From: a virus
Virus record (IMG/VR): IMGVR_UViG_3300025871_000005
Coordinates: 12,445 to 76,444 of that record
Direction: 5' to 3' (one strand)
Length of the DNA stretch: 64,000 nucleotides
The notes beneath the pieces were generated by a model. The model saw only the letters and a list, made by a program, of their open reading frames with translations, did no database searches and was not told the DNA's origin. A program made the translations under genes and the position numbers. This document shows positions 4,725 through 64,000 of the stretch, in pieces. How positions within the stretch are numbered: the first letter of the stretch is position 1; each line of letters begins with the position of its first letter.

Positions 4725-5015
4725 TCAACCCAATTCGTAATTCTTTTCAAGATCATCCTTTGTGACATGAACATGTTCACCTTGTGGTGAAGCAATTGTT
4801 GCATCAGTGATACCAACCTCTTTCACAGTATACAATTCACCAGTTTCTTTATTTTTAATCTTCAATCCAGTTGACAGAATTGATTTCTTTTCACCATCTT
4901 TTGTTTTTGCATTGAACATCAAATCAACGCCTGAATTTTCAGCAAGTGAAGAAATTTTTCTATTCCACTCTTCTCGAATGAGATTGATCAGTTCACGTTC
5001 ACTAAGTTTCTTCAT
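4725..5015 (-). CDS. Hypothetical protein with N-terminal 'L..LIREE' leader
   Basis: MKKLSERELINLIREEW; beta-rich C-terminus; TACTTA upstream. Confidence 0.6.
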   Translation of the reverse strand: MKKLSERELINLIREEWNRKISSLAENSGVDLMFNAKTKDGEKKSILSTGLKIKNKETGELYTVKEVGITDATIASPQGEHVHVTKDDLEKNYELG

Positions 5016-40016: not shown

Positions 40017-40724
40017 TTACCATCGAAGAATTCGACGATTATTGGAATCATACATTTCAGGATTAATTTCATGTTTCGTTGGTGGACGAGGTATTTGAGT
40101 TGCTGTATCTCCTGCTCGAGCAATAATATTACCAATTAATCCTTTTAATTTAGCCAATTTTAGTGGCATAATATTTTCCCAAGATGTTCCATCCAACGAT
40201 CGTGTTCTTACAATTACAAGATCAGGACGTAAATAAACTGTAACATCATCTTCTTTACGTGAATCAAAATAAGTTGTTGCTTTTTTACCTACACCTGGTT
40301 TTTTTGCATCCAAAAGTGTTGCATCTTCTACTTCTGCCCATTCACTATCAGCTGCATCTCTAGCCCCATAAATTGCATTATAACGTTCCTCATCTTTTTT
40401 AGCTTTAAGTTTTTCTTTTGCTCTTGTTGCAGCTGCTTTCGTCGCAGCAGCTTTTCTATCAACTTTTTTATATGTAGATTTCTTTATTTCTCTCATTTTT
40501 GAAAGAAGAAGTGGTTTAATCTGTTTAAGAATAACATCTTCTCCTGCAGGAAAACCTTTTTCTGCCAAAAGTATAGCTAATTCATCAATTAATTTCAATG
40601 CGCGAGGATATGATTCAATGTCAAATTGTCTATCTGAATGAATTTCCAATGATTTTGTTTTTGCTTCCAACAATATTGTTTCAATAAGTGATCTCAAATC
40701 TGACAATTTCATTACATTTGACAT
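40017..40724 (-). CDS. Hypothetical protein with leader motif and atypical (TpA-rich) composition
   Basis: MKLSDLRSLIETILLEA; many TTA/CGT codons. Confidence 0.6.
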   Translation of the reverse strand: MSNVMKLSDLRSLIETILLEAKTKSLEIHSDRQFDIESYPRALKLIDELAILLAEKGFPAGEDVILKQIKPLLLSKMREIKKSTYKKVDRKAAATKAAATRAKEKLKAKKDEERYNAIYGARDAADSEWAEVEDATLLDAKKPGVGKKATTYFDSRKEDDVTVYLRPDLVIVRTRSLDGTSWENIMPLKLAKLKGLIGNIIARAGDTATQIPRPPTKHEINPEMYDSNNRRILRW

Positions 40725-50900: not shown

Positions 50901-52217
50901 CTCTGACTTCTTCTTTATGTCATCAAGTGATGAACCATAATTTTTCAATGAGAACACCTGTTTTGCAGTTGCCTCATCAAGACCGGTCTGTTGTGATATC
51001 AATTTCAACTGTTGACGTGAAAATTGTGAACTGTCAACGCCGGCTTCCTTGAAAGACTTTCTCAACATATCAAGTTGTTCAGCTGGATTTTGTGCACTCA
51101 TCATTTTGAATGCATCAACTGTCACACCAAATGATTGAGAAAGGTTTGCTGCTGCCTCTGCTGCACTGTCAAACGTTTCAAATTTTCCAAGTGTTCCAAC
51201 AACCTTATCAAGTTCGACACCCAACTTTTTGGTGTATACAGATGCTTGAGCAATCTCTTTCACTGCCAGTTGACCAAAATTGCCAACATCTTTCATTGCT
51301 TTTCCAACATCACGACCGATGATTTTTTGATCCAAATCAAATGCTCTTCCAAGCCCAAGCGTCTGTTTTGCCAAATCATTGAACACTTTTGACATTGGTT
51401 GGCCCATGGTGATTGCTCTCTGACCAAGACCTTTCATTTCATCCTCTGCAAAACCGAGCGCTTTTTGGTATGCAAGGATTGCTCCACCATTGTCCTCAAA
51501 TTCATTGCGCAACACTTGGAATGTTGGACCCATGCCCTCAGCCATTTTGAGCATATACTCTAAACGTTCAGCAAGATTTCCAAATACACGCCAAGCTGAA
51601 AGACCTGTATCCCTAAAACCAGCAAGGTGTGAAACAGTCATCCTGATCGCTTGTGGCGTTTGGCCTGCAAGATCACCAAATGATTTTCTTATGTTCTCAA
51701 TTGCCTGCAGAAGACTTGAATCACCACCTGAATATTTCACTGCCTCATCAAGCAACCCCTTGTACATCTTGAATGGGATTGAAATGATTGATATTCCCAA
51801 TTTGAATGCTGCACCTGCAACAGTGAACATTGCACTGCCAAGTGAATGCATCATTGCAATTGAACCTGTGAGACCACTCTTCAGACCACTCAATGTTCCA
51901 ATGAACCCACCCAATATAACACCATGCTTTTTGACAGATTGTCCAGCTTTTGTAACAGCCTTCTCAAAATCAGTCATATCATCAATTTGGTCTTCCAATT
52001 TGTCATTGATGTCACCAAGAATTTTTTCATTCAATTCTTTGTTGTTGTCAATGTAATCTTTGAAATCTTTTGAATTCATCTGCTCATGCAATCGTTTCAT
52101 TGCATCAGTCTGTGATGATATGGCTCTTGAAAAATCAGATGCTTCATCAGAGATGTCATTCATAACATCCCTCAATTTGAGCATCATGTCAAGTTGTTCT
52201 TTTTCCTGATTTGCCAT
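47922..52217 (-). CDS. Tail tape measure protein
   Basis: 1431 aa; Ala/Gly-rich helical sequence with hydrophobic segments; position in the tail module. Confidence 0.8.
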   Translation of the reverse strand: MANQEKEQLDMMLKLRDVMNDISDEASDFSRAISSQTDAMKRLHEQMNSKDFKDYIDNNKELNEKILGDINDKLEDQIDDMTDFEKAVTKAGQSVKKHGVILGGFIGTLSGLKSGLTGSIAMMHSLGSAMFTVAGAAFKLGISIISIPFKMYKGLLDEAVKYSGGDSSLLQAIENIRKSFGDLAGQTPQAIRMTVSHLAGFRDTGLSAWRVFGNLAERLEYMLKMAEGMGPTFQVLRNEFEDNGGAILAYQKALGFAEDEMKGLGQRAITMGQPMSKVFNDLAKQTLGLGRAFDLDQKIIGRDVGKAMKDVGNFGQLAVKEIAQASVYTKKLGVELDKVVGTLGKFETFDSAAEAAANLSQSFGVTVDAFKMMSAQNPAEQLDMLRKSFKEAGVDSSQFSRQQLKLISQQTGLDEATAKQVFSLKNYGSSLDDIKKKSEGSEKKTMTQTEAMQNLAASIERLVKSGGDMGPASFFQQFFRGFKVGIVSTREFAVLMRNIRWSLRLTFMEGIKLGREFTRFFPGVHDFLKNLAEMFSPKRIVGFFAYMRSELSGTIHALANGDVTIVQALHNIMSKFRSFMSLEGSTGMKVLESANRFWKNFVKIAKEGMKWAIDQTSEGLKLIAWYLTNPKQLTTPAAGGISKFGSWVFDNVIKPAIDIGKYAWDKLLPPLMNIIQTLIMGVTKRIEGGSFDFVFKALGSTILLKIVANIVTSATSGIVSGALTTAAAAMMGAKGIMGQLFEKVKNVKIPSGSSKGIGEVANAAASTKDLGAAGSEMGKMNIGMIAKGALVVGAVALLVTAIAGLTYLMFKGADPAKLSAIGKYMISMTGVIAGAGLIALEAIALGAIVTNPVGLTFGAAGLAAIGAVVLAISGFAALTLAQIDKIPAGPEFESKTNIFINLMNSIVNLSKEMGSILGALNVSFTDWITGTNYVEKVSQAKKFIEAYIGDDNSGIIGIVKTLITSLRQISVGGAIESAVTSAASIFNSVTQMVVALKPSDEFFKAVREIEFTNRTNKTQSNAISDYIRAQSQQIEQLAEASRGIINTLMNNAAIAQSSGIKPEMFNSISGIFNSVVNLITSLKPSDQLISQLITTETVGEKGKMVEKHLAKFDPKTYESMLTSVLGVFRSGIPELINGVLGSIQGVKLDVNSMQKIDMIGKVLKSATDLINAIKPNEITVQSSGKGPTEILANVSNIDTVLKTFGSGFGDMFMSIKQQINQITTGDFGTITPQNIQMFTNVMNSIKPITDVINVLKGMPTTGGQNVQTQIETMMISLANIAHFGRRLGSAEYGTNNLMKDVVTGANNIKSSGLIPALDGLQKTVDAISRVSKMFDGENVSVDTKLKKIAEGIGIKGKKYEFQIAEGRAQLTVNLTVTMKTDEVEKVILENKQSIIRDRLNFAAEQPVSPTQRLPENLNDYQTAYQTGPITP

Positions 52218-52252
52218 CTTGTGTTATCAATCTTATCTAGGCACACATAATG

Positions 52253-52281
52253 AAAAAGGGCCCACAACTGTGAACCCTTTG
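52253..52281 (-). terminator. Probable terminator
   Basis: aaaggg...cccttt stem followed by T5 on the minus strand. Confidence 0.5.
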
Positions 52282-52301
52282 AATGCAATATGAACTATTT
52301 T

Positions 52302-52541
52302 TCAATCAGCAAGTTCACCATTCTCTCGCCTCAATTCAGCAACCAACTTTGACATTCTCATCAATCGTTCATGTTCTTCAGGACGTTTTCTCCAAACAGA
52401 TCTCACCTCTGAACTGACAGATTGCAAAAGATTGTCAATATTGTGAACTGTTGACATTGTTGCAGTTGCTTGCCAACTTGCCTCTGCAAGTTGAAGTTCT
52501 TCTTTAATAATTTTCTTGAGTTCAGAGATCCGGATTTTCAT
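52302..52541 (-). CDS. Small protein with MKIRISELKKIIKEE leader
   Basis: Likely start ATG 52541 with the same GTTAACAGT-ATG context as 53289 and 54793. Confidence 0.65.
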   Translation of the reverse strand: MKIRISELKKIIKEELQLAEASWQATATMSTVHNIDNLLQSVSSEVRSVWRKRPEEHERLMRMSKLVAELRRENGELAD

Positions 52542-52611
52542 ACTGTTAACATTTCCATGACAATTTATTGACCACACTGAGATATATTTGTCATATCAGA
52601 TTTATGTTTTT

Positions 52612-53289
52612 TCATCGGGTGTATTTTATGATATCATTCATATTTCTAGTTGATAATTTGAATGTCATAAACTTTTTTCCACTAAAATAGTCAATTAAAT
52701 CAACAATTGATTGACCAGGAATGTACGTAAAGTTTACATCCACAGCTGAATATTCAGTATTTTTTGGGTCATCTTTAGAAGTTTTCCAATTTATGTCTGC
52801 TCTAACATTATAATGATTTTCATCAATTTTTGTTGCATAATAAACCTTAACTTTCAATAAATCTGGATTTGTTTTTTCAGTTACTCTTGGCGCAAATTTA
52901 CGTTGTTGTTGAACAGCTTTGATTTTCTTATCTGATCCAAGCAACTCACTCTCACCCCTTGGTGACAATTTCCAAAGTGTTGCTGTTCCTTGTTTACCTG
53001 CAGGAACCAACCAACCTCTGGCAACTAATGATCCTTTATTGAACTTATTATGATCATATGTAGTTGTTGAATAATGTCTGAATGCATCAGAATTCATTTT
53101 CCTGTACTCTTTACCACTCTGAGCCAACCATGCAGTGATGATTTCTTTCTGTGTTGCTGTACCATTGTCTTTCAAAAATTGTGCAACAAATTGTCTAAAT
53201 TCAGTCAATTCATAATCACCCAAATCTTCTTGTGGTATAGACAATGCTTCACTAATAATCTGCCTCAGCTGATTTATTGAAATTTTCAT
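52612..53289 (-). CDS. Leader plus conserved winged-helix-like domain plus unique C-terminal domain (paralog A)
   Basis: About 120 N-terminal aa highly similar to 54026..54793. Confidence 0.65.
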   Translation of the reverse strand: MKISINQLRQIISEALSIPQEDLGDYELTEFRQFVAQFLKDNGTATQKEIITAWLAQSGKEYRKMNSDAFRHYSTTTYDHNKFNKGSLVARGWLVPAGKQGTATLWKLSPRGESELLGSDKKIKAVQQQRKFAPRVTEKTNPDLLKVKVYYATKIDENHYNVRADINWKTSKDDPKNTEYSAVDVNFTYIPGQSIVDLIDYFSGKKFMTFKLSTRNMNDIIKYTR

Positions 53290-53300
53290 ACTGTTAACTA
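52930..53300. repeat. Direct repeat copy 1 (5' part of paralog A)
   Basis: Shares near-identical stretches with 54430..54804, e.g. tcacccttggtgacaatttccaaagtgttgc and about 75 bp with one mismatch at 53161. Confidence 0.85.
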
Positions 53301-53304
53301 TCTT

Positions 53305-54045
53305 TCACAATGGCCACTTAACACCAAGAATGCGTTCAAAATCTCTGGCATCTGCATTCTTTAAGTTCAACTTCTGCATCACACCATGAACAGTCGCTCC
53401 TGGATTGTTCAGTTCATCCTGAAAACGTTTACTTGACATCATTGCATTCATGACTGCATTCACTTCTTGAGGTGTGCCCTTGATCTTGAGATTGAGGGTT
53501 TTTCCTGCCATCCAAAGTGCTATTGATCCAAACAGAAGTTTTCCAAGAAGATTCACTTTCCATTCATTCATCAACACAGGTTCTGTGTTATCATCGATCT
53601 TTTTTGACACTTTCTGTTTCATTCCTTTCAAAAGTTCTTTTGCGTCATTGAGAACATTCACATCCCTAACATTACCAACACTCATAAAAAGTTCAATTGC
53701 TTCATCAAATGGCAATAGTTTAACCTCTGCAGTCTCAAAGTCATGTTCACCCGGTTCACTGAGTGCATCCATCAGAAAGAAATGATTTGTTGAATATTGA
53801 CCAATATACATACCAATGTACCCACCATTGACAATTTTTGCCCTAACACCCAATTCTTCACCAACCTCTCTAATGGCTGCATTCATAAGGCTCTCACCAT
53901 CATCTTGACGGCCTTTTGGAAGTGACCACGAACCCCAAGATCCATCACCAGATGGCAACCTTACATAAACATTAGGCATGCCATCAATATATTTGATGAC
54001 CACGCCACCAGCAGAGATCCATTTGTCAGATAATTTGGTTACCAT
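53305..54045 (-). CDS. Nudix hydrolase fused to a C-terminal domain of unknown function
   Basis: Nudix box GRQDDGESLMNAAIREVGEELGV; SAGGVV; start uncertain (54045-54087). Confidence 0.85.
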   Translation of the reverse strand: MVTKLSDKWISAGGVVIKYIDGMPNVYVRLPSGDGSWGSWSLPKGRQDDGESLMNAAIREVGEELGVRAKIVNGGYIGMYIGQYSTNHFFLMDALSEPGEHDFETAEVKLLPFDEAIELFMSVGNVRDVNVLNDAKELLKGMKQKVSKKIDDNTEPVLMNEWKVNLLGKLLFGSIALWMAGKTLNLKIKGTPQEVNAVMNAMMSSKRFQDELNNPGATVHGVMQKLNLKNADARDFERILGVKWPL

Positions 54046-54793
54046 ACCATTCTTTTGCATGATCTTTTTCTTGTATTTTATTTTCAATAGCGTTTATTTC
54101 ATTATCACTAAAGACATATGGTGGTTCGATCTTTACATCTTTTTCATTAACAATGTCAGTGTAATATAAATCAAATGCTTTTTTCCCCGATATATACGTA
54201 AAATATACGCTAATAGTGGATTTTGTTTTACGATCTACCAATCGTCCACCAACACTGTAATTTTGTACACCAGGTATCTTTTTAAATCCTGGGTTGATAT
54301 CATCTCTTTTTATAGCTGGACGTGCCCAAATTACTTTGAATTCAATATTGCTTCTATCTGTTGCTAAAACATTCTTTATTTCTAAAGCTTCTTTCTCTCC
54401 AGGATCTATTGGCGCTCTTTTTACTTTTTTAAGTGATCCCAACAAGTCTTTTTCACCCCTTGGTGACAATTTCCAAAGTGTTGCAGCCCCCTTCTTACCT
54501 GCAGGGACCAACCAACCTCTGGCAACCAATGATCCTTTATTAAACTTATCATGATCATATGTAGTTGTTGAATATGGACGGAATGCATCACTATGTGTTT
54601 TTCGATCTGCATCTCTACCTTTTAACTCATTCCATGCTGTTGTGATTTGACTTTGTGTTGCTGGACCATTGTCTTTCAAAAATTGTGCAACAAATTGCCT
54701 AAATTCAGTCAATTCATAATCACCCAAATCTTCTTGTGGCACAGATAACGCTTCATTAATTATTGCTCTCAACTGTTCTATTGAAATTTTCAT
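54026..54793 (-). CDS. Leader plus conserved winged-helix-like domain plus unique C-terminal domain (paralog B)
   Basis: MKISIEQLRAIINEAL; N-terminal half homologous to 52612..53289. Confidence 0.65.
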   Translation of the reverse strand: MKISIEQLRAIINEALSVPQEDLGDYELTEFRQFVAQFLKDNGPATQSQITTAWNELKGRDADRKTHSDAFRPYSTTTYDHDKFNKGSLVARGWLVPAGKKGAATLWKLSPRGEKDLLGSLKKVKRAPIDPGEKEALEIKNVLATDRSNIEFKVIWARPAIKRDDINPGFKKIPGVQNYSVGGRLVDRKTKSTISVYFTYISGKKAFDLYYTDIVNEKDVKIEPPYVFSDNEINAIENKIQEKDHAKEWYGNQII

Positions 54794-54804
54794 ACTGTTA
54801 ACTA
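54430..54804. repeat. Direct repeat copy 2 (5' part of paralog B)
   Basis: Matches copy 1 at 52930..53300. Confidence 0.85.
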
Positions 54805-54814
54805 CGTTCTCCAT

Positions 54815-55822
54815 TTATTGTCGACGTTTCCATGACAATTTATTGACTGCAATCTCACCAAACCCAATTGCTTCAACTTCATCAATATATGTTGCTGCGC
54901 CAAAAAGACTGTACAGATTTAGACAATCAAGAAACTTACCTTCATTCTCCTCAAATGGATCTGCACACAATACAACATAATACATGTCAGTCTTATCTGA
55001 ATGTCGACGTGAAAATCTTTCTGCAACATCAATTGATTGTGACCATGAAGAGGCAACATCAATGGGAACAAATTTCATATTGACTTCAGCTTCACCAGAA
55101 TAGCCTGGACTTTTAACATGTTGTCTTAACCAAGCCCCTGAAACCAACATGCCTCTGTAAACAGCATCTGTTTCTGGGCCTCGCAAATAATTCCTATATT
55201 TTCTTGCTTTTAACAGACTTGAGATCTCTTTTGCAACAGAACCAATCATGGGTTCTCCCTTAAAATGTTGTTTTAGATAGTCAACAATCCTTGCCTCAAT
55301 CTCTGTATCCTTTTCTGGCATATCTCTCAGTTCACCAAACGCTATTTTTCCCAAACTACCACCTTTTGGTTCGTCAACTTTTACTTTCAGTACGCCAATC
55401 TGCTGCGCATATGATTTCAACAAATCGTAGAACTTGTTGAACAATGTCTTCAGTTTATATTCAAATTCATCAACAAATGCATTAAAATTGACAAAATTTG
55501 CAATTTTGAAATTGTATTTGATGATATCATTAATCATATCATCTGTTGCAATCCTGTCAACATTGTTCAGAACGCTGAGTTGACTCTTTTCAAAATGTCC
55601 ATTCTGGTCTATCAACAAATTGTTGAACAACAAAAAGATGTCTTCAAAACTTTCAAATTCATCAACATTCTTTTCCAAAAAATCATATAAACTGAGTTTT
55701 GTTGATTTTGTGCCAGCAAGTTGACCGACGTACAAATTTTTACGAAAAACCTGTGAAACAACTGAAGTGATTACATTTCTCATGTGATCATAATCAGCCG
55801 CTGTCAAATCATCAATTTTCAT
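54815..55822 (-). CDS. ADP-ribosyltransferase-like protein, paralog 2, with N-terminal extension
   Basis: LGKIAFG, VYRGM, SSWS, DEVEA. Confidence 0.7.
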   Translation of the reverse strand: MKIDDLTAADYDHMRNVITSVVSQVFRKNLYVGQLAGTKSTKLSLYDFLEKNVDEFESFEDIFLLFNNLLIDQNGHFEKSQLSVLNNVDRIATDDMINDIIKYNFKIANFVNFNAFVDEFEYKLKTLFNKFYDLLKSYAQQIGVLKVKVDEPKGGSLGKIAFGELRDMPEKDTEIEARIVDYLKQHFKGEPMIGSVAKEISSLLKARKYRNYLRGPETDAVYRGMLVSGAWLRQHVKSPGYSGEAEVNMKFVPIDVASSWSQSIDVAERFSRRHSDKTDMYYVVLCADPFEENEGKFLDCLNLYSLFGAATYIDEVEAIGFGEIAVNKLSWKRRQ

Positions 55823-55846
55823 AACACTAAATATACAACAAACAGC

Positions 55847-55868
55847 TTGGGACCCTTGTGGGTCCCAA
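55847..55868 (-). terminator. Hairpin, possible terminator
   Basis: Perfect 9-bp stem ttgggaccc/gggtcccaa; weak U tract. Confidence 0.45.
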
Positions 55869-55871
55869 TGA

Positions 55872-56139
55872 TTATGTAAATCGCCTCAATCTGCTTGGCG
55901 CTTGATCTCTCGCCATTCCCAAAAGTGTTCTCACTTCAGGATCCAATCCTCTTGATTGTGGGCTGTCTGCATTCTGTCCACTATTCAGCTCTCGTTGTGT
56001 CCTGTCAATGAACCATCTCTTGTACCTGACAGGCAATGTGTACACATCATGATAACTGAAGCCACAATGATACATCAACAGGAATGTTGGCTCAAGAATG
56101 ACAGCTTCCCTGTCCTCAGGTTTGAGGCCAAAGAAACTG
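55872..56139 (-). CDS. Tail assembly chaperone 'T' extension, probably reached by frameshift
   Basis: Reading FFGLKPEDREAVILEPTFLLMYHCGFSYHDVYTLPVRYKRWFI in the +1 frame, overlapping the end of 56116..56970. Confidence 0.55.
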
Positions 56140-56970
56140 CGGACCCATCGGGATCTGCACCTCTTCCTCACTGTCACACTCTGGACAACGCACCATCTGC
56201 TCCAACTTGATGCCGGGCTCATTCTCTCTGATGTATGCCCTCAACGCTTTGCTATCCTTGACAGGCATCATCCTGACAAATTCATTCACCCGTTTCCTAT
56301 CATAATCACCATCAATGCTCAGCAAGAGCGTCTGGAGAGATGTTGAAACATTGTTCTCAATCTTTGTTCCCAACTTTTTCAGACTTTCCTTTGCAATGAT
56401 TGCAGTCTCTTCATCAGTTCCAGTCATGAACTTGAATGTGATATTTTTTCCACTTGGGAGTGTGAATGCAAATTCATTCATCCCAGCCTTGACAGGCGCA
56501 ATCTTGATGGGCATAATCTCAAGTGCCCCAAGATCAAAATTCCATTCAAATTTGTGATCACAATGACTGCATGTCAAATTTGCCTCATAGTCTGTGCCAT
56601 AACCGGTTGCCCTGATTGCAACAAGGAGTGCTGTCCTGTCTCCAACAAGAAGTCCTCTGCTCTTTACGTCCTTGTTGATGAGACAGCTGTCAATGAGTTC
56701 ACTGATCACAGTGCCATTCTTGATGAGAGCTTTTGAGGTGAGAATATCCTCTTCCCTCGTTGTCATTGCTCTGATCTGCACTGTCTCTGCTCCACTCAGA
56801 ACACCACTATATGTGCACCCCTTTGATGGGAGAGGAATTTCTTCAACGGGAATATCAATTCCAAATTCTGTCTTTGCCCGCTCCATTTGGCTCTGAACCT
56901 GATATCCCTGCTGTGCAGCCTGTCCTGCATTCATACCAAACACTTGATTTTTTTGTTCACGATCTTCCAT
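56116..56970 (-). CDS. Tail/baseplate assembly chaperone (T4 gp26/gp51-like, 'G')
   Basis: IPLPSKG, IRAMTTREEDIL, LLVGDRTALLVAIR, CSHC, CPEC, FLWP end. Confidence 0.7.
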   Translation of the reverse strand: MEDREQKNQVFGMNAGQAAQQGYQVQSQMERAKTEFGIDIPVEEIPLPSKGCTYSGVLSGAETVQIRAMTTREEDILTSKALIKNGTVISELIDSCLINKDVKSRGLLVGDRTALLVAIRATGYGTDYEANLTCSHCDHKFEWNFDLGALEIMPIKIAPVKAGMNEFAFTLPSGKNITFKFMTGTDEETAIIAKESLKKLGTKIENNVSTSLQTLLLSIDGDYDRKRVNEFVRMMPVKDSKALRAYIRENEPGIKLEQMVRCPECDSEEEVQIPMGPQFLWPQT

Positions 56971-57028
56971 AAACAGTCCTCAGCACATTGTAAACAACTG
57001 TGCACTCTGTGTAAATAGCCCAAAACGC

Positions 57029-57058
57029 AAATTGAGAACCGCGAATGGTTCTCAAAAA
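57029..57058 (-). terminator. Probable terminator
   Basis: 9-bp stem ttgagaacc/ggttctcaa followed by TTT on the minus strand. Confidence 0.5.
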
Positions 57059-57094
57059 GCATTATGTTGTCTTCACATCAATTGTGATGAAAAA

Positions 57095-57445
57095 TCACCA
57101 CTTGGCGCGACTGAATGGCTCTCTGCCAGGCTTCATTCCTCGCCCGCCAGCATTGCTGAATGGATGAGCACCATGCCCTGCTGTCTCAATTCCCAACTTT
57201 TGGGCAACAGCTGCTGCAATTTCATTTGCATCCATATCACCATCAAGATAACTCTTCACCTGACCCCTGATGATTGGATCTGATTTCAGAACCTCAACAA
57301 CATCATCCTTCGGCATACCGAGGGCAGTGATGACAGATGATATGAGTGACTGTTCTGTCCTACCAATTGCTTCCCTGATCAGTTTGCGCAATCTGTGAAG
57401 TTGAACCTCTTCCTTGATGATCTCTTTTAACTGTGACAATTTCAT
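57095..57445 (-). CDS. Small protein with doubled leader motif
   Basis: MKLSQLKEIIKEEVQLHRLRKLIREAIG; TAATTA upstream. Confidence 0.65.
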   Translation of the reverse strand: MKLSQLKEIIKEEVQLHRLRKLIREAIGRTEQSLISSVITALGMPKDDVVEVLKSDPIIRGQVKSYLDGDMDANEIAAAVAQKLGIETAGHGAHPFSNAGGRGMKPGREPFSRAKW

Positions 57446-57471
57446 GTTGCTAATTATCAACTGTCAGCAAA

Positions 57472-58130
57472 TCATGTGAGCGTATACACAAAATTTCCAG
57501 GAATCCAGACTTTCACAACGCCCATTTCATCAGCAACTTCTCTCTCTGATTTGCCCAACCTTTTGTTGGCCCTGAACTTGAACCGGTTCCAAACATTGCA
57601 TCCATTTGTCCACCAAAACTTTGGCCCAGTTTCACTGTGCAATTGCCAACCACATTTTGTGTAATCTGGACATTGTATCAATCTCATGTCTGCATATGTC
57701 ATCAACCCAACCATTCCCTATTCGTGTGACCTTCTTTGAGAGTTCTGGATGTCTTCTCTGAAGATGCTCTCAACTTTTCACAGTTCTCCTTTGTGAGCCC
57801 TCTGTTCCAAACTTTCAGTTCACCACGTTCATGTTTCTCTCTCCTCAGTTTGAGGTTCTTTGCAATCACATCAGGTCTTGCAAATGTACGATCAATCACT
57901 GCATTGTGACCCCTCACATACTCTGACAAATAACCCAATTTCCATGAATTGAATTTCACCCTCCTACCACAACCACATTTGCATAGGGGTGCAACACCAT
58001 CAAGATGTGTATCAATGTAGAACTGTTCACTGTCTGTGATGTTGTGCTCATCGGCAATGTGTTCAACAAATCTCTTCTCTTGTCCAAAATCTTTCCCACA
58101 GATTGGACATACAACTCTCAAATTTTTCAT
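57472..58130 (-). pseudogene. Internally deleted, frame-broken paralog of the endonuclease at 58873
   Basis: Zn finger, CKCGCG and WNRGLTKE in one frame; FWWT...RFKFRA...VVKVW in another; nuclease core absent. Confidence 0.65.
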
Positions 58131-58258
58131 ACTTCCACACTAATCGCCAATTCTTTTCCACAATTGTAAGGCTTTTGTGGTGTGATGTACACAAAACAAT
58201 GGGACCAAGATCTGCTATGATCTGTGATCCCAATGATTGTTTTATGTTGAGAGATATC

Positions 58259-58747
58259 TCAGAATTGGAGTATTGCGTTATCGTACCTGAGTGTAAGGTT
58301 GATTTCGCTCAGTTCTGAAGAACTGTAATCCAGACCACCAAAATCTGCATCTTTGATCCAGGCACCGGTGATATTCCATAGCTCGATACATGTACCCACA
58401 GGATCTAAAAGTTTAAGATCAATATCTCGCTTGTAGAAGTCAACATAGCCTGACCTACCTGAGACACTCTCATAGTGAAGTCTGATCCATTCCATGACCT
58501 GCTGAGCCCCTGATGGTGCAAGTGGATCGTGGAGTGAGATCTGCATCTCACCAAATGTTGTTTTACCGCCAACATAGCGGGTTGTGTTGATCCAGTGCAA
58601 TGTCTGCTCTTCAGTGCTGATCTTGGGACGAGCTGCCTTTTTCAGTATGTATGCATCAATTCCCTCTATCATCATTATCCAGCGGAATTGTTTTTTGGGT
58701 TCAAACTTGGGTGAAATCATGTCCGATACGTTGAGTGTTTCTGCCAT
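58259..58747 (-). CDS. Tail tube protein (T4 gp19-like)
   Basis: FEPKKQFRWIM, YVGGKTTF, MEWIR, YKRDIDLKLLDPVG, LTLRYD. Confidence 0.88.
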   Translation of the reverse strand: MAETLNVSDMISPKFEPKKQFRWIMMIEGIDAYILKKAARPKISTEEQTLHWINTTRYVGGKTTFGEMQISLHDPLAPSGAQQVMEWIRLHYESVSGRSGYVDFYKRDIDLKLLDPVGTCIELWNITGAWIKDADFGGLDYSSSELSEINLTLRYDNAILQF

Positions 58748-58872
58748 TATGCTATCCTATCCTTCTAATCCTAATGGATTATGAACAATAACTAACACGC
58801 TTGAAAATTTTGTATTCCAAAATAGTGAACAATTTAGCAAAATTTTATACTTTGAGATAAAGGAATATAAAC

Positions 58873-60510
58873 ATGGCTCCCAAAGTTGGTCACAAAATGA
58901 TACCTGTTAAATGTCCTCTGTGCAATTTCAGCCACAGATGGCACAGCAAATTGGAATTGCACATCAAGGAAGTGCATGGAAGAGATCCCTCTGAAGTGTG
59001 GAGAGAATGGAAAGGTGTTGATGGTCTGTGCAAATGTGGTTGTGGTCAGTTGACAAATTGGGGCGGATGGTCATTGGGCCATTCTGAATGGGTCATTGGA
59101 CACAATGGAAACATATACACTCTGCCAGAAGAGGAAGCAAAAGCAATCTCTGAGAAGAGGAGCAAAGCACTCATGGGACGTCCAGGTTGGTCAAAAGGCC
59201 TCACAAAGGAAACGAGTGAAATTGTTAGGAAGAGATCTGAAACAATCTCTGAAGTCCTGACTAAAAAGTATGCAAATGGTGAACTGACCAATTGGGCAAA
59301 GGGTCTCACAAAGGACACTGATGAGAGAATGCAGTTGAGATCAGAACACTTGAAAGAAGGATATGCTGAAGGAAAATTCATTCCATGGGCAAAAGGTCTC
59401 ACAAAGGACACTGATGACAGAGTTTTCAGGATGTCTGAAAAAGTGAAATCAACAATGAAAAGAGAAGATTTGAGAAAACGTCTTGATCACCTCAAGAGGA
59501 TGACACACGATGAATTGAGATCAAGAATTGAAACACTCGATTTTGAGATCATTGGTGGACTTGATGAATACATCAATCGTGGTCAAAAGATCATCACAGT
59601 GAAATGCAAATCTTGTGGTGCTCAATTCACTGACAGTTTCAACAGACTTGAACATGGTAAGTGTTTCAACTGTCACCCAGGTGGATCAAAATCCCAACTT
59701 GATATCATCAATTTTGTCACATCACTTGGTGTTCAGATCAAAAAGAATGACAGAAAAGTTCTTGAAGGACTTGAACTTGATGTGTTGGCAATTGATGAAA
59801 AATTTGCAATTGAATACAATGGTCTATATTGGCACAATGAGCTGAGCAAATCAAAACAGTACCATGATAACAAGACAAAGAATGCTGCAAAGAAGGGCAT
59901 AAATCTCATTCACATTTTTGAGGATGAGTGGAGAACAAAACGTCCAGTTGTTGAAGACCTGATCAGGAAGAATCTTGGTTGCAGTCAATTGACAATGTTC
60001 AGTCAGGAAGATTGCACAATTGTTGAACTCACTGCACAACAGAAAATTGACTTTTTTGACAAGTGTTCACTCATTGGAAAAGTTGATGGGACAAGATCAT
60101 TTGGATTTATGAATGGTGATGACATCATTGCAGCTGTGCAATTCAGAAAACACAGGGAAAAAAAGTGGTCAGAATACAATCAATTGATTGATTATGCACA
60201 CATTCCTGGTGGTGATGTCATTGATGGTTTAAACATATTGTTGACAAATCTGTCTGAGCAATTTGGCAAAAAATGGATTCACAATTTTGATGCAAGATTT
60301 GGTTCAAGTCATGATTTCACAAATATTGGCTTCAAGCAGATTGGAACAAAAGATCCAGAATTCTGGTGGACAGACTGTGAAAATCGTTTCAACCGGTTCA
60401 TGTACAGGGCTGATGCCAAATTGGGCCTCACTGAGGCTCAGGTTGCTGACGCTGCAAATGTTGTCAAGATTTGGGGATGTCACAGCAAGATCTTCACAAT
60501 TGAACTCTGA
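58873..60510 (+). CDS. Free-standing homing endonuclease (Hef-like PD-(D/E)xK) with Zn fingers and NUMOD3-like repeats
   Basis: CKCGCG; three W(S/A)KGLTK(E/D)T repeats; LELDV...AIEYNGLYWH...IHIFEDEW. Confidence 0.75.
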   Translation: MAPKVGHKMIPVKCPLCNFSHRWHSKLELHIKEVHGRDPSEVWREWKGVDGLCKCGCGQLTNWGGWSLGHSEWVIGHNGNIYTLPEEEAKAISEKRSKALMGRPGWSKGLTKETSEIVRKRSETISEVLTKKYANGELTNWAKGLTKDTDERMQLRSEHLKEGYAEGKFIPWAKGLTKDTDDRVFRMSEKVKSTMKREDLRKRLDHLKRMTHDELRSRIETLDFEIIGGLDEYINRGQKIITVKCKSCGAQFTDSFNRLEHGKCFNCHPGGSKSQLDIINFVTSLGVQIKKNDRKVLEGLELDVLAIDEKFAIEYNGLYWHNELSKSKQYHDNKTKNAAKKGINLIHIFEDEWRTKRPVVEDLIRKNLGCSQLTMFSQEDCTIVELTAQQKIDFFDKCSLIGKVDGTRSFGFMNGDDIIAAVQFRKHREKKWSEYNQLIDYAHIPGGDVIDGLNILLTNLSEQFGKKWIHNFDARFGSSHDFTNIGFKQIGTKDPEFWWTDCENRFNRFMYRADAKLGLTEAQVADAANVVKIWGCHSKIFTIEL

Positions 60511-60520
60511 TCACAGAGCA

Positions 60521-61060
60521 TTACAGATCATCTTCATTCCAAACACACACGATCCTGTTGATGTGGACTGCATCCTCAAGTGTCAACACTTCCTGTTCAT
60601 TACTGTTCTGCGCATCGACAGTGTTGTACCACTGTTCCAGATCAGCACACAGCAGATCTGGCGCATCTGTTTCCATCACAATTCCAAATCTTTTGACCGT
60701 TCGCTTCTGTCCAGAGTACACACCATACCCACCAGCACTCTCTGGCTTTGCAAACGCTTTGGCAATTTTGGGATTTTTTGACCAACTGCTGTACCCATTC
60801 TTTGTGTAGTATGTGCTCTGTGCAGTGTTCTGAGTACCTGTGACAACTTTGTTTGGATCAAATCCCAACAGTTGCATGCTTTCATATGAAACAATCATTC
60901 CACGATAAAGTTTTCCACTGTACTGTCCAAATATGTCAGTGTGCAACCCACTAATGATTGCACTCTTCAGTTCATCAACCTGTTCAGTTGACATCACTGT
61001 GCCATTGCGCAAATAGTCATTGAGTCCTGCGAGTGAAACTTTACCCATTGTTTTGCCCAT
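60521..61060 (-). CDS. ADP-ribosyltransferase-like protein, paralog 3
   Basis: LYRGM, YSSWS, NEQEV. Confidence 0.72.
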   Translation of the reverse strand: MGKTMGKVSLAGLNDYLRNGTVMSTEQVDELKSAIISGLHTDIFGQYSGKLYRGMIVSYESMQLLGFDPNKVVTGTQNTAQSTYYTKNGYSSWSKNPKIAKAFAKPESAGGYGVYSGQKRTVKRFGIVMETDAPDLLCADLEQWYNTVDAQNSNEQEVLTLEDAVHINRIVCVWNEDDL

Positions 61061-61064
61061 TGCT

Positions 61065-61661
61065 CTATTTCCATGTGACTGTTATTGACTGAACAGTGAT
61101 CCTCTTCTCAAGAATGAACACTTCCTGCTCAACAGAGTTGACACCATCAACAGCAAAGTACCAACCATCAAGTGTAAACCCTTTGTATTTGCTGGCATCA
61201 GCTGTTAACACAATTCCATACAACTGTTCTTCAGTCTCAGGACCATTGTACTTTCCAAAACCTCCCAGCGCCTCAGGAACTGAGAACTGTTTTGCAATGC
61301 CAGCAGAACTTGACCAACTGCTGTACCCGTGTTTTGTTGTGTATGTGCACTGTGTTCTCTGCATATCCCCAATGATGACACCATTTGGATCAAAACCAAA
61401 ACTCCTCAACTGTTCAGTGGAAACAATCATTCCCCTGTAGATTGGTCCCAAATACTGTGGAAACATATCGTCATACTCATTGACATCAAGTGCATCCTTG
61501 AGTGCATTGACTGAACTCTTGGGTATTGTGTGTGAAGGATCCCTGAAATATTTGAAAAGATTTCCAGCTGTCTGCTTTTCAATCCTGTTGTCAGGCTCTC
61601 CTGATTGAAGATATGGATGTCTCTCATCATCAAATGCAATCTTGTCAAAGATGTCACTCAC
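61065..61661 (-). CDS. ADP-ribosyltransferase-like protein, paralog 4
   Basis: DKIAF, IYRGM, YSSWS, VEQEV. Confidence 0.72.
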   Translation of the reverse strand: MSDIFDKIAFDDERHPYLQSGEPDNRIEKQTAGNLFKYFRDPSHTIPKSSVNALKDALDVNEYDDMFPQYLGPIYRGMIVSTEQLRSFGFDPNGVIIGDMQRTQCTYTTKHGYSSWSSSAGIAKQFSVPEALGGFGKYNGPETEEQLYGIVLTADASKYKGFTLDGWYFAVDGVNSVEQEVFILEKRITVQSITVTWK

Positions 61662-61664
61662 TGT

Positions 61665-61847
61665 TCACAATCCCATGCTCTCTGACCATTTTCTGATTCT
61701 CTTCTTGATATCATCAGGAACCAATGTGCTCTCTTCACTGAATGCTTCATCATCCATCAACCTGTGATCATACATTTCATCGGGTTGAGAGCCCCTGAGA
61801 GCCTCCCTAATAATCTTTCTAATCCTCTGTTCAGTTGCCTTGTCCAC
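61665..61847 (-). CDS. Small protein with leader motif
   Basis: RIRKIIREAL; GTG start; TATTTA upstream. Confidence 0.6.
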   Translation of the reverse strand: MDKATEQRIRKIIREALRGSQPDEMYDHRLMDDEAFSEESTLVPDDIKKRIRKWSESMGL

Positions 61848-61893
61848 GACAATAAATAGAATTCCTGGGTCATTCTCACATCAAGAATTGCCA

Positions 61894-62496
61894 TTAATAT
61901 GTTCTGGCAATGATTATCTTGTGCAAATCAACATTTCCAATGCAAAATATTTCAGCTTCATCACTGACTGCATAAAGAGCATCTGTCTCCCTGTACAGAG
62001 CATCAAGTGAAAATATATCGCCCATAAAATCAGCTGTATCAGCACACAAAATGATGCCCAATGTGCCATCAGTGATACTTCCCTTTGTGTATGCAAATGC
62101 ATCAGCTGTTTCAAGATTTTCTGACCAACTGCTGTAACCATGTCTTGGAACATAAGTGAAATCATGATCTTCAATCACAAATTGTCGACGCATTCCATAC
62201 TCTGATTTCAGTTGTTCATGGCTTGGTAAGTCATCAATTCTCTTTTTGAGATAGTTGTATGATACTGACATTCCTCTGTAGAATTGTCCAGAATATTGCA
62301 AAAATACATCCTCATACATTGGATTGCTGATCACCTTTTTCAGCAACTCAAGATCTGCCTTTTCAATTTTGGTATGATTGACAAAGTAGTCAGTCAGCGC
62401 TCTGAAAAGAGCGTCTTCATTTGAAGTATTCTTTTCTCTTCCAACAAATTTGTCTCTATTGTCAGCAAAAGCTATTTGTCCCAATAATCCATGCAT
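61894..62496 (-). CDS. ADP-ribosyltransferase-like protein, paralog 5
   Basis: GQIAF, FYRGM, YSSWS, DEAEI. Confidence 0.72.
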   Translation of the reverse strand: MHGLLGQIAFADNRDKFVGREKNTSNEDALFRALTDYFVNHTKIEKADLELLKKVISNPMYEDVFLQYSGQFYRGMSVSYNYLKKRIDDLPSHEQLKSEYGMRRQFVIEDHDFTYVPRHGYSSWSENLETADAFAYTKGSITDGTLGIILCADTADFMGDIFSLDALYRETDALYAVSDEAEIFCIGNVDLHKIIIARTY

Positions 62497-62517
62497 GCAG
62501 TATTGTTCCTATTTCAT

Positions 62518-63084
62518 TTATTTTGCCAACATTATTGATACAATTGGAATATTACCTATTGACAATATTTCCTGTTCATATCTGAATTCATCATCTATCA
62601 AATTGTACCAACCAATCATATCAATTGCCATTTCACAATCTTTTGTTTTTGCAATCAGAACTATTGGTAACATATTACGCATACTCAATTTAGCATTGCA
62701 GGCCACATCTATTGCATATTCTTCATCTGAAGACCATGAACTGTATTTGTATTTTGGAATATATGTTCCACTAATTTGAATTTCTCTATTTTCTTCAAGC
62801 TCATTTGCATCAATGCCAAAATTGTCTTTCAACCAACCTTCACTCACACGCATACCACGATAGATGTAAGTGCCATCATACAGAGGAAACATATCTCTGT
62901 ATTGATCAGATTTAACTGCATTGATCAATACATTCAAATTCTGTTCTGATATTTCAGAATTATCCAATACATGATTCAATAAGTTATCAAAAAGAGATTG
63001 TTCTGATGGGTTGTTTTCCTCAGTATCCCGCAAATCATCTTGACGATCATTTGCAAACGCTATTCTGTCAAGAGGTCCACTCAT
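62518..63084 (-). CDS. ADP-ribosyltransferase-like protein, paralog 6
   Basis: DRIAF, IYRGM, YSSWS, YEQEI. Confidence 0.72.
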   Translation of the reverse strand: MSGPLDRIAFANDRQDDLRDTEENNPSEQSLFDNLLNHVLDNSEISEQNLNVLINAVKSDQYRDMFPLYDGTYIYRGMRVSEGWLKDNFGIDANELEENREIQISGTYIPKYKYSSWSSDEEYAIDVACNAKLSMRNMLPIVLIAKTKDCEMAIDMIGWYNLIDDEFRYEQEILSIGNIPIVSIMLAK

Positions 63085-63089
63085 ACTGA

Positions 63090-63359
63090 TTATTCTGAGT
63101 CCTGTTTGTATTCTTCAACAACACCAAGGAGTGCATCCCTGAGTGCATCAGCAACATCTTTTCTTGCTTCATCATTTGTCATGACGACCTGTTTGAGAGC
63201 TGTCATCAGCTGAGGATCATTCCAGACTGCACTCATGATCATTTTATCCAAATCAAGTGACTCAATCAGTTGTCGAACCTCTTTGAGAACCTTTGCCTTG
63301 TGTGCAATGGCTGCTTCTTCTTTGATAATCTTCTTCAATTCTGATACTTTAATTTTCAT
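63090..63359 (-). CDS. Small protein with MKIKVSELKKIIKEE leader
   Basis: Leader plus a second motif VRQLIES; TATTTA upstream. Confidence 0.65.
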   Translation of the reverse strand: MKIKVSELKKIIKEEAAIAHKAKVLKEVRQLIESLDLDKMIMSAVWNDPQLMTALKQVVMTNDEARKDVADALRDALLGVVEEYKQDSE

Positions 63360-63378
63360 AACACTGTTTCCTGTACAC

Positions 63379-63384
63379 TAAATA
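63379..63384 (-). promoter_or_regulatory. TANTTA putative late-promoter motif (one of 16 located upstream copies)
   Basis: Same hexamer upstream of many structural and leader genes; see the TANTTA finding. Confidence 0.5.
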
Positions 63385-63438
63385 GAAAGTGTGCCCAAAA
63401 AATTCTTGAGCACACTGTTTTCTAATCACACTGTCACA

Positions 63439-64000
63439 TTATTCCTGAATGTTGTTTGACACAACGAAGTCAAGTGAAACAAATTCAACAGATTTTGTTG
63501 GTTGAACGTAAATCTTGCCCCTGATTGTATTGTTCTCAACATCAGCTTGTGTTGTTGTGCTGCTGTCAATGACAACTTTGAACCTATCAATACCTCTGAG
63601 TTTTTGAATTCTCTGAACTCTTGGTGTAACCAATCCTGAGAACTTGGCAAGTGTTGCTTCCCTGTTTGGCTCAAAAATGATCTGTTGAGCAATGTCCCTA
63701 ATCTCTCTCCTCAATGTGATGAGAAGTCTTCTGACATTCACTCTGTCAAGAGCAGAAGCTGACTGCAACAGTGTCTTCTGACCCCAAATAACACAACCAC
63801 CCGTTGGATTTGTTCCACCAACTGCTGTTCCAGGGAATGCTGTCAGGGGATTGATTGCTGCATCATAGAGTGCATCCAGATTATTCTTTGACAGTTTAAC
63901 CTTGGTCTCCTGAACTGTGTCAAGAGCACCCCTGGTGAAGCCTGCAGGAGCAAACCATGGATGTCCAACTGCATCATTCTTTGCAAGTGCGCCAAACACT
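63439..64000 (-). CDS. Contractile tail sheath protein (T4 gp18-like), C-terminal part
   Basis: PWFAPAGFTRG, LYDAAINP, WGQKTL, DRVNVRRLL, FEPN, IYVQPTKSVEFV. Confidence 0.93.
   Translation of the reverse strand, partial: VFGALAKNDAVGHPWFAPAGFTRGALDTVQETKVKLSKNNLDALYDAAINPLTAFPGTAVGGTNPTGGCVIWGQKTLLQSASALDRVNVRRLLITLRREIRDIAQQIIFEPNREATLAKFSGLVTPRVQRIQKLRGIDRFKVVIDSSTTTQADVENNTIRGKIYVQPTKSVEFVSLDFVVSNNIQE

What the first reader, a model, noticed from the sequence alone, without database searches (positions are those of the whole stretch)
52302..63359. Recurrent N-terminal leader 'MK(I/L)..L..II.E(E/A)' on unrelated proteins: candidate capsid-targeting/protease signal
Seen: MKIRISELKKIIKEE (52541), MKISINQLRQIISEA (53289), MKISIEQLRAIINEA (54793), MKLSQLKEIIKEE (57445), RIRKIIREA (61847), MKIKVSELKKIIKEE (63359), MKLSDLRSLIETILLEA (about 40712), LSERELINLIREE (5015) and LCEFIKEA (about 1492). 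The bodies after the leader are mostly unrelated. Established: T4 internal proteins carry a short N-terminal capsid-targeting sequence, removed by prohead protease gp21 after (L/I)xE. Inference: a general address tag that loads many payload proteins into the head, possibly usable for engineered delivery.
Basis: partly seen in the sequence, partly recalled or inferred. Interest (0 to 1): 0.75.

Follow-up and report, generated by a model that had tools for sequence, protein, structure and literature searches.

The report
Capsid-loading leader tag on phage proteins
An uncultured 270-kb T4-like phage starts at least eleven otherwise unrelated genes with the same 14-residue peptide, which ends in the cutting motif of its head protease; this is most likely the phage T4 "pack into the head, then clip off" address tag in a new and widespread version.

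Summary
Eleven genes of this 269.5-kb virus record begin with MK(L/I)(T/S)xx(Q/L)L(K/R)xIIxE(E/A). Shuffled translations give 0.24 such matches. All eleven lie on the coding strand and at ORF starts. Six are inside the reported stretch. One weaker variant there (61847) also holds. The 40712 example is marginal, and 1492 is not supported.

The conserved Leu and Ile use five and three different codons, so selection acts on the peptide.

The phage has a T4 gp21-type (S77) prohead protease with its His and Ser kept, and a gp23-type capsid protein. That capsid protein carries VLKE|A near where T4 gp23 is cut. The same hydrophobic-hydrophobic-x-Glu site is conserved in two head-module proteins across 58-77 relatives. 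Two small proteins encoded just after the protease gene carry the leader itself.

The tag is widespread:
- Two related giant contigs have 10 copies each.
- Those stretches yielded 92 complete ORFs in 86 unrelated body families.
- Five of five large contigs found this way encode an S77 protease.

Best reading (about 0.7): a T4-type capsid-targeting propeptide. Neither packaging nor cleavage is shown. This scan has noted similar tags in other uncultured T4-like phages. It is a new member of a known kind.

The parts
63090..63359 (-). 89-aa leader gene. Leader MKIKVSELKKIIKE at 63318-63359; predicted cut after Glu14. The mature part is acidic (pI 4.8).
   Evidence: (27.5 bits)
61665..61847 (-). 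60-aa gene with a GTG start and a variant leader MDKATEQRIRKIIRE (61803-61847).
   Evidence: 16.1 bits; shuffled maximum 12.2
57095..57445 (-). 116-aa leader gene. It has a short leader MKLSQLKEIIKE (57410-57445), followed by a second tandem copy of the motif (LRKLIRE|A).
   Evidence: 20.1 bits, with a second hit at 10.7
54026..54793 (-). 255-aa leader gene. Leader MKISIEQLRAIINE at 54752-54793. It is a paralog of the 225-aa gene; the two share residues 1-125 or so and differ in the C-terminal halves.
   Evidence: (27.7 bits)
52612..53289 (-). 225-aa leader gene. Leader MKISINQLRQIISE at 53248-53289. Residues 20-125 are possibly a winged helix (lead only). No homolog other than its paralog exists among 1.84 billion representatives.
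   Evidence: (29.2 bits)
52302..52541 (-). 79-aa leader gene immediately upstream of the tape-measure gene. Leader MKIRISELKKIIKE at 52500-52541.
   Evidence: (24.5 bits)
40017..40712 (-). 231-aa gene with a marginal variant, MKLSDLRSLIE-TILLE. It has two hydrophobic-x-Glu sites, at residues 11 and 16.
   Evidence: 4.7 bits only
4725..5015 (-). 96-aa leader gene. Leader MKKLSERELINLIRE at 4971-5015. Its ortholog in the complete relative G002 also carries the leader.
   Evidence: 27.7 bits
596..1492 (-). I do not count it as a leader gene.
   Evidence: 0.6 bits; no hydrophobic-hydrophobic-x-Glu in register

Best explanation
The peptide MK(L/I)(T/S)xx(Q/L)L(K/R)xIIxE|(E/A)(L/I/V) is most likely an N-terminal propeptide of the T4 capsid-targeting-sequence type. 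The proposed mechanism has three steps, all inferred. As a short helix, the peptide docks the protein onto the scaffolding core of the assembling prohead. When the shell closes, the phage's gp21-type (S77) serine protease cuts after the invariant Glu (P4-P1 = Ile/Leu-Ile-x-Glu). The freed cargo stays in the head and enters the host with the DNA.

What is shown: the tag exists, it is selected at the peptide level, it occurs only at N-termini, and it sits on many unrelated bodies. It ends in the same motif that is conserved at the predicted maturation sites of the capsid protein and head-module proteins. It is present on two small proteins encoded just after the protease gene, and it co-occurs with S77 proteases.

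The cargo bodies are small orphan proteins, 41-243 residues after the predicted cut. By analogy with T4 Ip1-3, they are plausibly host-takeover or anti-restriction factors.
For: 1. Non-random and N-terminal only.
- 11 strict hits against 0.24 expected. All are on the coding strand at ORF starts.
- HMM scores are 18.8-31.4 bits against a shuffled maximum of 12.2.

2. Peptide-level selection.
- The invariant Leu uses 5 codons and the Ile pair uses 3.

3. The protease.
- Peptidase_S77 match, E = 1.5e-30.
- T4 gp21 structure 5JBL, E = 1.5e-18.
- The GELDHP and SSRG motifs align with T4's GELNHP and SSRG.

4. The same site appears in likely obligate substrates.
- The gp23-family capsid protein has VLKE|A at residues 58-62, near T4's LTE65|A. 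It reads VLKE|(S/A) in nearly all of 58 related loci.
- The N-terminus of a 626-aa acidic protein between the protease and capsid genes reads A-(L/I/V)-(L/I/V)-E|AV in 66 relatives.
- A 300-aa protein upstream of the protease reads SI(L/I)xE|A in 77 relatives, with P2 free to vary.

5. Head-module proteins carry the leader.
- In the 83-aa family, the leader columns M1, L3, T4, L8, E14 and E15 are six of only ten invariant columns.
- The 138-aa family also carries it.

6. AlphaFold2 on the 83-aa family predicts the leader as a helix, residues 5-19, at modest confidence.

7. Spread across the clade.
- 75 hits in 80 related loci, all on the gene strand.
- 10 in the complete relative G002 and 10 in G001.
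- Positions the pattern did not constrain are strongly biased: T4 in 70/92, K5 in 62/92, L/I/V16 in 74/92.

8. 5 of 5 large contigs found through the leader encode an S77 protease.

9. The precedent.
- T4 N-termini read from NC_000866: IPII/IPIII MKTYQEFIAE|A, gp22 MLKEQLIAE|A, gp24 MAKINELLRE|S.
- CTS function, and its presence on unrelated Ips, is described in PMC9026906, PMC3012670 and PMC12373910.
Against: - There is no direct evidence that any of these proteins is in virions or is cut.
- P1' is Glu in most leaders. It is Ala or Ser in this phage's capsid and head-module sites, and Ala, Ser, Thr or Leu in the T4 N-terminal sites read.
- The predicted helix runs through the proposed cut site.
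- A leader HMM does not detect the T4 leaders, so the link to T4 is by pattern and context, not by homology.
- Six of the genes sit in the tail module, between sheath and tape measure, so the location alone does not point to the head.
- Several cargo bodies are acidic, whereas the T4 internal proteins are described as basic (PMC9026906).
Confidence: 0.7

Rival explanations
1. The leader is an assembly or docking helix that is not removed, or that targets another structure. That structure could be the tail lumen or tape-measure complex, the portal, or other leader-bearing proteins through helix bundling. On this reading, the Glu is a binding residue and not a cleavage site.
For: - Six leader genes lie between the sheath, tube and tape-measure genes.
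- The helix is predicted to continue past the Glu, with a conserved hydrophobic residue at P2'.
- P1' Glu is unlike the other predicted sites.
Against: - The leader also heads two small proteins encoded next to the protease gene.
- Its last four residues match the motif conserved at the capsid protein's expected maturation site.
- In T4, targeting and cleavage reside in the same 10 residues (PMC9026906).
Confidence: 0.13
2. The leader is a recognition tag for some other enzyme or machine. Examples are a RiPP-like modifying enzyme, as proposed elsewhere in this scan for a radical-SAM-linked tag in phage RB43, a secretion system, or a host protease.
Against: - Neither a Radical_SAM nor a SPASM domain is found in this 269.5-kb record, while the controls were found.
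- The tag is hydrophilic and charged, so it is not a Sec or Tat signal.
- It ends in the protease-type motif and co-occurs with S77 proteases in 5 of 5 contigs.
- The record may be incomplete (CheckV estimate 74%), so absence of a partner enzyme is not proof.
Confidence: 0.07
3. The conservation is at the nucleic-acid level. On this reading, the first 45 nt belong to a promoter-proximal or leaderless-mRNA translation-initiation element, and the peptide is a by-product.
For: - In 10 of 17 leader or leader-like genes, a TANTTA hexamer ends 5-9 nt (mostly 5) before the start codon.
- None of the ten has an evident Shine-Dalgarno in that gap, and this association is strong (Fisher p = 5e-9).
- All leaders start ATGAA(A/G).
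Against: - Synonymous codons vary freely at the invariant Leu, Ile and Lys/Arg positions.
- Conservation follows physico-chemical class across distant contigs.
- In the relative G002, only 5 of 15 leader genes have the hexamer.
Confidence: 0.04

Closest known systems
[quoted passage not shown]
   Same: - A short N-terminal tag starting at Met1-Lys2 and ending in hydrophobic-x-Glu.
- It is shared by proteins with no other similarity.
- The phage has a gp21-type S77 protease and a gp23-type capsid protein with the same site.
- The cargo genes are small, fast-evolving and clustered.
   Different: - 14-15 residues against 10.
- No detectable sequence homology to MKTYQEFIAE.
- P1' is mostly Glu.
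- 11-17 genes per genome against three in T4.
- Dozens to hundreds of body families across uncultured phages.
- Nothing has been tested experimentally.
N-terminal propeptides of T4 prohead core and shell proteins (gp22, gp24, gp67, gp68, gp21, Alt) removed by gp21
   Same: The T4 N-termini read here all end in a hydrophobic-x-Glu motif (gp22 MLKEQLIAE, gp24 MAKINELLRE, gp67 MEGLIE). Here too, small proteins encoded next to the protease gene carry the tag.
   Different: In T4 these propeptides differ from one another. Here one nearly invariant sequence is reused on both the head-module proteins and the accessory proteins.
Long propeptides of ejection and inner-body proteins of phiKZ-like giant phages (SPN3US, 201phi2-1, phiKZ; PMC5694885)
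   Same: These are giant-phage head proteins processed by a T4-related prohead protease after Glu. Their propeptides are proposed to target proteins into the prohead.
   Different: Most of those propeptides are over 100 residues and the motif is (A/S)-x-E. They are not one shared short tag, and that phage lineage is different.

Membership tests
T4-type capsid targeting sequence / gp21-cleaved propeptide | Located at the extreme N-terminus, 10-20 residues long | tested here: met
   All strong hits start at the initiator Met. The Glu is at residue 12-15.
T4-type capsid targeting sequence / gp21-cleaved propeptide | Ends in the prohead-protease motif (L/I)-x-E | tested here: met
   I-I-x-E or L-I-x-E in all 11. 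When the Glu is not required by the search, it is still the commonest residue there, in 23 of 52 relaxed matches.
T4-type capsid targeting sequence / gp21-cleaved propeptide | The phage encodes a gp21-family (Peptidase S77) prohead protease with catalytic residues | tested here: met
   PF03420, 103 bits. 5JBL, E = 1.5e-18. The His and Ser motifs align with T4 gp21.
T4-type capsid targeting sequence / gp21-cleaved propeptide | The same motif marks the maturation site of the major capsid protein and of core proteins | tested here: met
   VLKE|(S/A) in nearly all of 58 related capsid genes. Conserved sites also occur in the 626-aa and 300-aa head-module proteins. That these sites are actually cut is inferred.
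T4-type capsid targeting sequence / gp21-cleaved propeptide | Shared by proteins that are otherwise unrelated | tested here: met
   29 body families among 82 proteins. 86 families among 92. The 225-aa body has no homolog in 1.84 billion representatives.
T4-type capsid targeting sequence / gp21-cleaved propeptide | Sequence homology to the T4 CTS (MKTYQEFIAE) | tested here: not met
   The leader HMM gives no positive score on the N-termini of T4 IPI, IPII, IPIII, gp22, gp24 or Alt. The resemblance is limited to MK.. and hydrophobic-x-E.
T4-type capsid targeting sequence / gp21-cleaved propeptide | Sufficient to load a foreign protein into proheads | not testable with these tools
   Needs a leader-reporter fusion in an assembly system. 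No cultured relative carries the tag.
T4-type capsid targeting sequence / gp21-cleaved propeptide | Removed by the protease in mature virions | not testable with these tools
   No virion proteome exists for this uncultured clade.
RiPP-like shared leader recognised by a radical-SAM/SPASM enzyme | A radical-SAM/SPASM enzyme encoded with the tagged genes | tested here: not met
   No PF04055 or PF13186 match in the record. Controls were positive.

The most novel reading that the evidence does not exclude
The tag is a pan-clade address label that can be mined from metagenomes. It would expose hundreds of unrelated, orphan, capsid-delivered effector families in uncultured giant T4-like phages. These could include inhibitors of modification-dependent restriction matched to this phage's probable hypermodified cytosine. 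The tag may work by copying the docking helix of the small core proteins encoded next to the protease. Many of these genes may be expressed as leaderless late transcripts from a TANTTA element 5 nt upstream of the ATG.
Probability: 0.3. Interest if true: 0.65.

Novelty: new member of a known kind. Interest (0 to 1): 0.45.

Why it matters
If the tag works as in T4, a 45-nt sequence pattern is enough to list the proteins that these uncultured giant phages carry in their heads and deliver with their DNA.

- In T4, all three such proteins turned out to be specific inhibitors of host restriction enzymes (PMC12373910). The tagged orphans here, at least 86 families in a truncated scan, are therefore a prioritised pool of candidate anti-defence and host-takeover factors.
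- The tag is also a testable packaging handle for a second, much larger capsid type.
- The concept itself is already established for T-even phages. The gain here is breadth and a new sequence, not a new principle.

Tried and rejected
- Complex prediction of the protease with the 83-aa leader protein, using alignments A1 and A2, returned no verdict. It counts neither for nor against.
- AlphaFold2 of the 225-aa cargo with its paralog gave mean pLDDT 46.7, too poor for a fold search. The winged-helix idea rests only on Atlas leads below the reliable range.
- Pfam and PHROGs gave nothing meaningful for any leader protein.
- Word-based and exhaustive sequence searches found no homolog of the 225-aa body except its paralog. 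The 83-aa family has only unnamed metagenomic relatives.
- Megablast of 52000-64000 against cultured phages found no match.
- The nulls were my own error, a miscounted run of N in the pattern. The corrected pattern works.
- By eye, the capsid protein's N-terminus (MSKxFTLDQLxxGIKE) resembles the leader, suggesting the tag mimics it. The HMM gives negative scores, so I dropped this idea.
- Homology of the leader to the T4 CTS was not detected.
- The radical-SAM tag rival has no such enzyme here.
- No paper describing this particular leader turned up in four literature searches. That is not proof that none exists.
Full report
**What the DNA is.** The window is the reverse strand of bases 4880-68879 of a 269,547-bp IMG/VR virus record. 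It is a giant myophage. It has a T4 gp23-family capsid protein (Pfam Gp23, E = 7e-74) and a T4-type portal. It also has a Peptidase_S77 prohead protease that matches the T4 gp21 structure 5JBL (E = 1.5e-18). The protease keeps the GELDHP and SSRG motifs that align with T4's GELNHP and SSRG. The closest cultured phages are distant: Microcystis phage Mel-JY01 at 57% protease identity and Flavobacterium 'immuto' phages at 47%. Uncultured contigs with about 70% identical proteases are numerous; 517 candidates were found and 80 fetched.

**Checking the observation.**
- A strict regular expression for the leader finds 11 sites in the whole genome. All are on the coding strand, each 2-18 codons after an upstream in-frame stop.
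- Fifty shuffles of the six-frame translation give a mean of 0.24 and never more than one.
- A profile built from 68 distinct leaders scores these 11 at 18.8-31.4 bits. The best of 9,641 shuffled candidate N-termini scores 12.2.
- A DNA pattern for the 15 codons gives 4 hits in the window and none in 100 dinucleotide-preserving shuffles.
- Of the weaker examples, 61847 holds at 16.1 bits, 40712 is marginal at 4.7, and 1492 is not supported at 0.6.
- Further strict members lie outside the window at genome positions 149753, 149986, 160428, 193945 and 245097. Weaker variants lie at 147305, 147826, 239836 and 244645.
- The bodies are unrelated except for the 225/255-aa paralog pair.

**Peptide or nucleic acid?** Within the conserved core, the invariant Leu is written with five different codons. 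The Ile pair uses three codons, and Lys and Arg interchange. Across distant contigs, conservation follows residue class. Selection therefore acts on the peptide.

**Link to the head protease.**
- The leader ends in Ile/Leu-Ile-x-Glu.
- The capsid protein carries Val-Leu-Lys-Glu|Ala at residues 58-62. This lies at the boundary where T4 gp23 is cut after Leu-Thr-Glu65. The site reads VLKE|(S/A) in nearly all of 58 related loci and has the same form in the two cultured relatives.
- A 626-aa acidic protein is encoded between the protease and capsid genes, where T4 has its scaffold gene 22. It starts with a conserved A-(L/I/V)-(L/I/V)-E|AV site in 66 relatives.
- A 300-aa protein upstream of the protease has SI(L/I)xE|A in 77 relatives. 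The P2 residue varies freely there, as expected for a protease site and not for a structural motif.
- Two small proteins are encoded just after the protease gene (a 129-aa ORF intervenes), roughly where T4 has its core genes. They are an 83-aa family and a 138-aa family, and both carry the leader itself.
- In the 83-aa family, leader residues M1, L3, T4, L8, E14 and E15 are six of only ten invariant columns.
- AlphaFold2 on that family predicts the leader as a helix, residues 5-19. An acidic linker and a long C-terminal helix follow.

**Spread.**
- In the 80 related loci, the strict motif occurs 75 times, always on the gene strand.
- A complete 298-kb relative (G002) has 10 strict copies and several variants. 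Another relative (G001) has 10.
Many of these hold arrays of two to six tagged genes.
- 109 of 113 hits open ORFs of 40 or more codons, and 96 lie within 25 codons of an upstream stop.
- The 92 complete ORFs fall into 86 body families, with a median length of 108 residues.
- Positions the pattern left free are strongly biased: Thr4 in 70/92, Lys5 in 62/92, Leu/Ile/Val16 in 74/92.
- All five large contigs found this way encode an S77 protease.
- T4, a cyanophage, Mel-JY01 and 'immuto' have no exact-pattern hit. By eye, 'immuto' has a looser look-alike in its head module.

**Comparison with what is known.**
- From the T4 record I read the N-termini of IPII/IPIII (MKTYQEFIAE|A), IPI, gp22 (MLKEQLIAE|A), gp24 (MAKINELLRE|S), gp67, gp68, gp21 and Alt.
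- They share the plan Met, a few polar residues, two hydrophobic residues, x, Glu.
- The literature establishes that the first 10 residues of IPIII suffice to load foreign proteins into the T4 head and are then removed by gp21.
- It also establishes that T-even ip genes share nothing but this leader and were found by it, and that Ip1-3 each inhibit a specific GmrSD-type restriction enzyme (PMC9026906, PMC3012670, PMC10229621, PMC12373910).
- The present tag therefore works like a CTS on every criterion that sequence analysis can test. It is not homologous in sequence, because the leader profile does not score the T4 leaders.
- It is longer, more uniform, used by far more genes, and mostly has Glu at P1'.

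**Rivals.**
- A docking helix that is not cleaved, or that targets another structure, cannot be excluded. Six genes sit in the tail module, and the helix is predicted to run through the cut site.
It finds no support, because the record has no radical-SAM or SPASM gene.
- A nucleic-acid element is contradicted by the codon data. There is nevertheless a striking association between leader genes and a TANTTA hexamer ending 5 nt before the ATG (see below).

**Cargo.** None of the bodies matches Pfam or PHROGs. The 225-aa protein has no homolog other than its paralog among 1.84 billion cluster representatives. Atlas leads hint at a winged helix in residues 20-125, but my own model was too poor to test this. 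After the predicted cut, the proteins would be 41-243 residues long with pI values from 4.1 to 9.6.

**Verdict.** The capsid-targeting, protease-clipped reading is the best supported (about 0.7) but rests entirely on sequence context. It is a new member of a known kind. Its main value is as a handle for finding virion-delivered proteins in uncultured T4-like giant phages. Earlier notes of this scan report similar tags in other uncultured T4-like phages.

Noticed in passing
genome-wide; in the window e.g. 53290-53300, 54794-54804, 57446-57456, 61848-61858: A TANTTA hexamer ends 5-9 nt (mostly exactly 5) before the start codon of 27 genes. None of the ten leader genes has an evident Shine-Dalgarno in that gap. 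Ten of 17 leader or leader-like genes have this layout, against 17 of about 384 others (Fisher p = 5e-9). The plus strand holds only 92 such hexamers in 270 kb. Upstream of the sheath paralog and the 626-aa acidic head-module gene, the same hexamer lies further away and an AGGA-type site follows it. This suggests a late promoter that gives leaderless mRNAs for the tagged genes. In the relative G002 the link is weaker, at 5 of 15.
   Followed up: partly
60521-63084 and 54815-55822 (minus strand): Five paralogous proteins show ADP-ribosyltransferase-like motifs by eye (YRGM..., SSWS, EQE). They are interleaved with leader genes but lack the leader. Three share a different N-terminal motif, IAF(A/D)(N/D)(D/E)R. 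T4's packaged Alt is also an ADP-ribosyltransferase. Whether these proteins are packaged by another route, for example through the small leader proteins next to them, is open.
   Followed up: no
53305-54087 (minus strand): A NUDIX hydrolase gene (Pfam E = 2.5e-10) sits between the two paralogous leader genes. In T4, nudE lies two genes from ipII/ipIII. This may be coincidence.
   Followed up: no
57095-57445 (minus strand): The 116-aa leader protein carries the motif twice in tandem (..LKEIIKEE VQLH RLRKLIREA..). This gives two possible cut sites, as in the multiply processed T4 propeptides.
   Followed up: no
G000 240199-242679 and 236999-239812 (outside the window; L082:4200-6680 and L082:1000-3813): The portal gene holds a mini-intein (CLTGDT...VHNC; Intein_splicing E = 3e-13). 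The large terminase gene holds an intein with a LAGLIDADG domain.
   Followed up: partly
58873-60510 (plus strand), 57702-58130 (minus strand): A 545-aa ORF on the opposite strand interrupts the tail module. Its Cys-rich N-terminal module also occurs in the 142-aa minus-strand gene and in two genes downstream of the capsid gene. It looks like a family of free-standing homing-endonuclease-type genes.
   Followed up: no
G000 1-2387 and 268708-269547: The record begins and ends inside sheath-like ORFs whose sequences resemble the neighbouring 999-aa sheath paralog. The contig may be a circularly permuted, nearly complete genome and not a 74% fragment. The reading frames did not join exactly in my quick check.
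   Followed up: no
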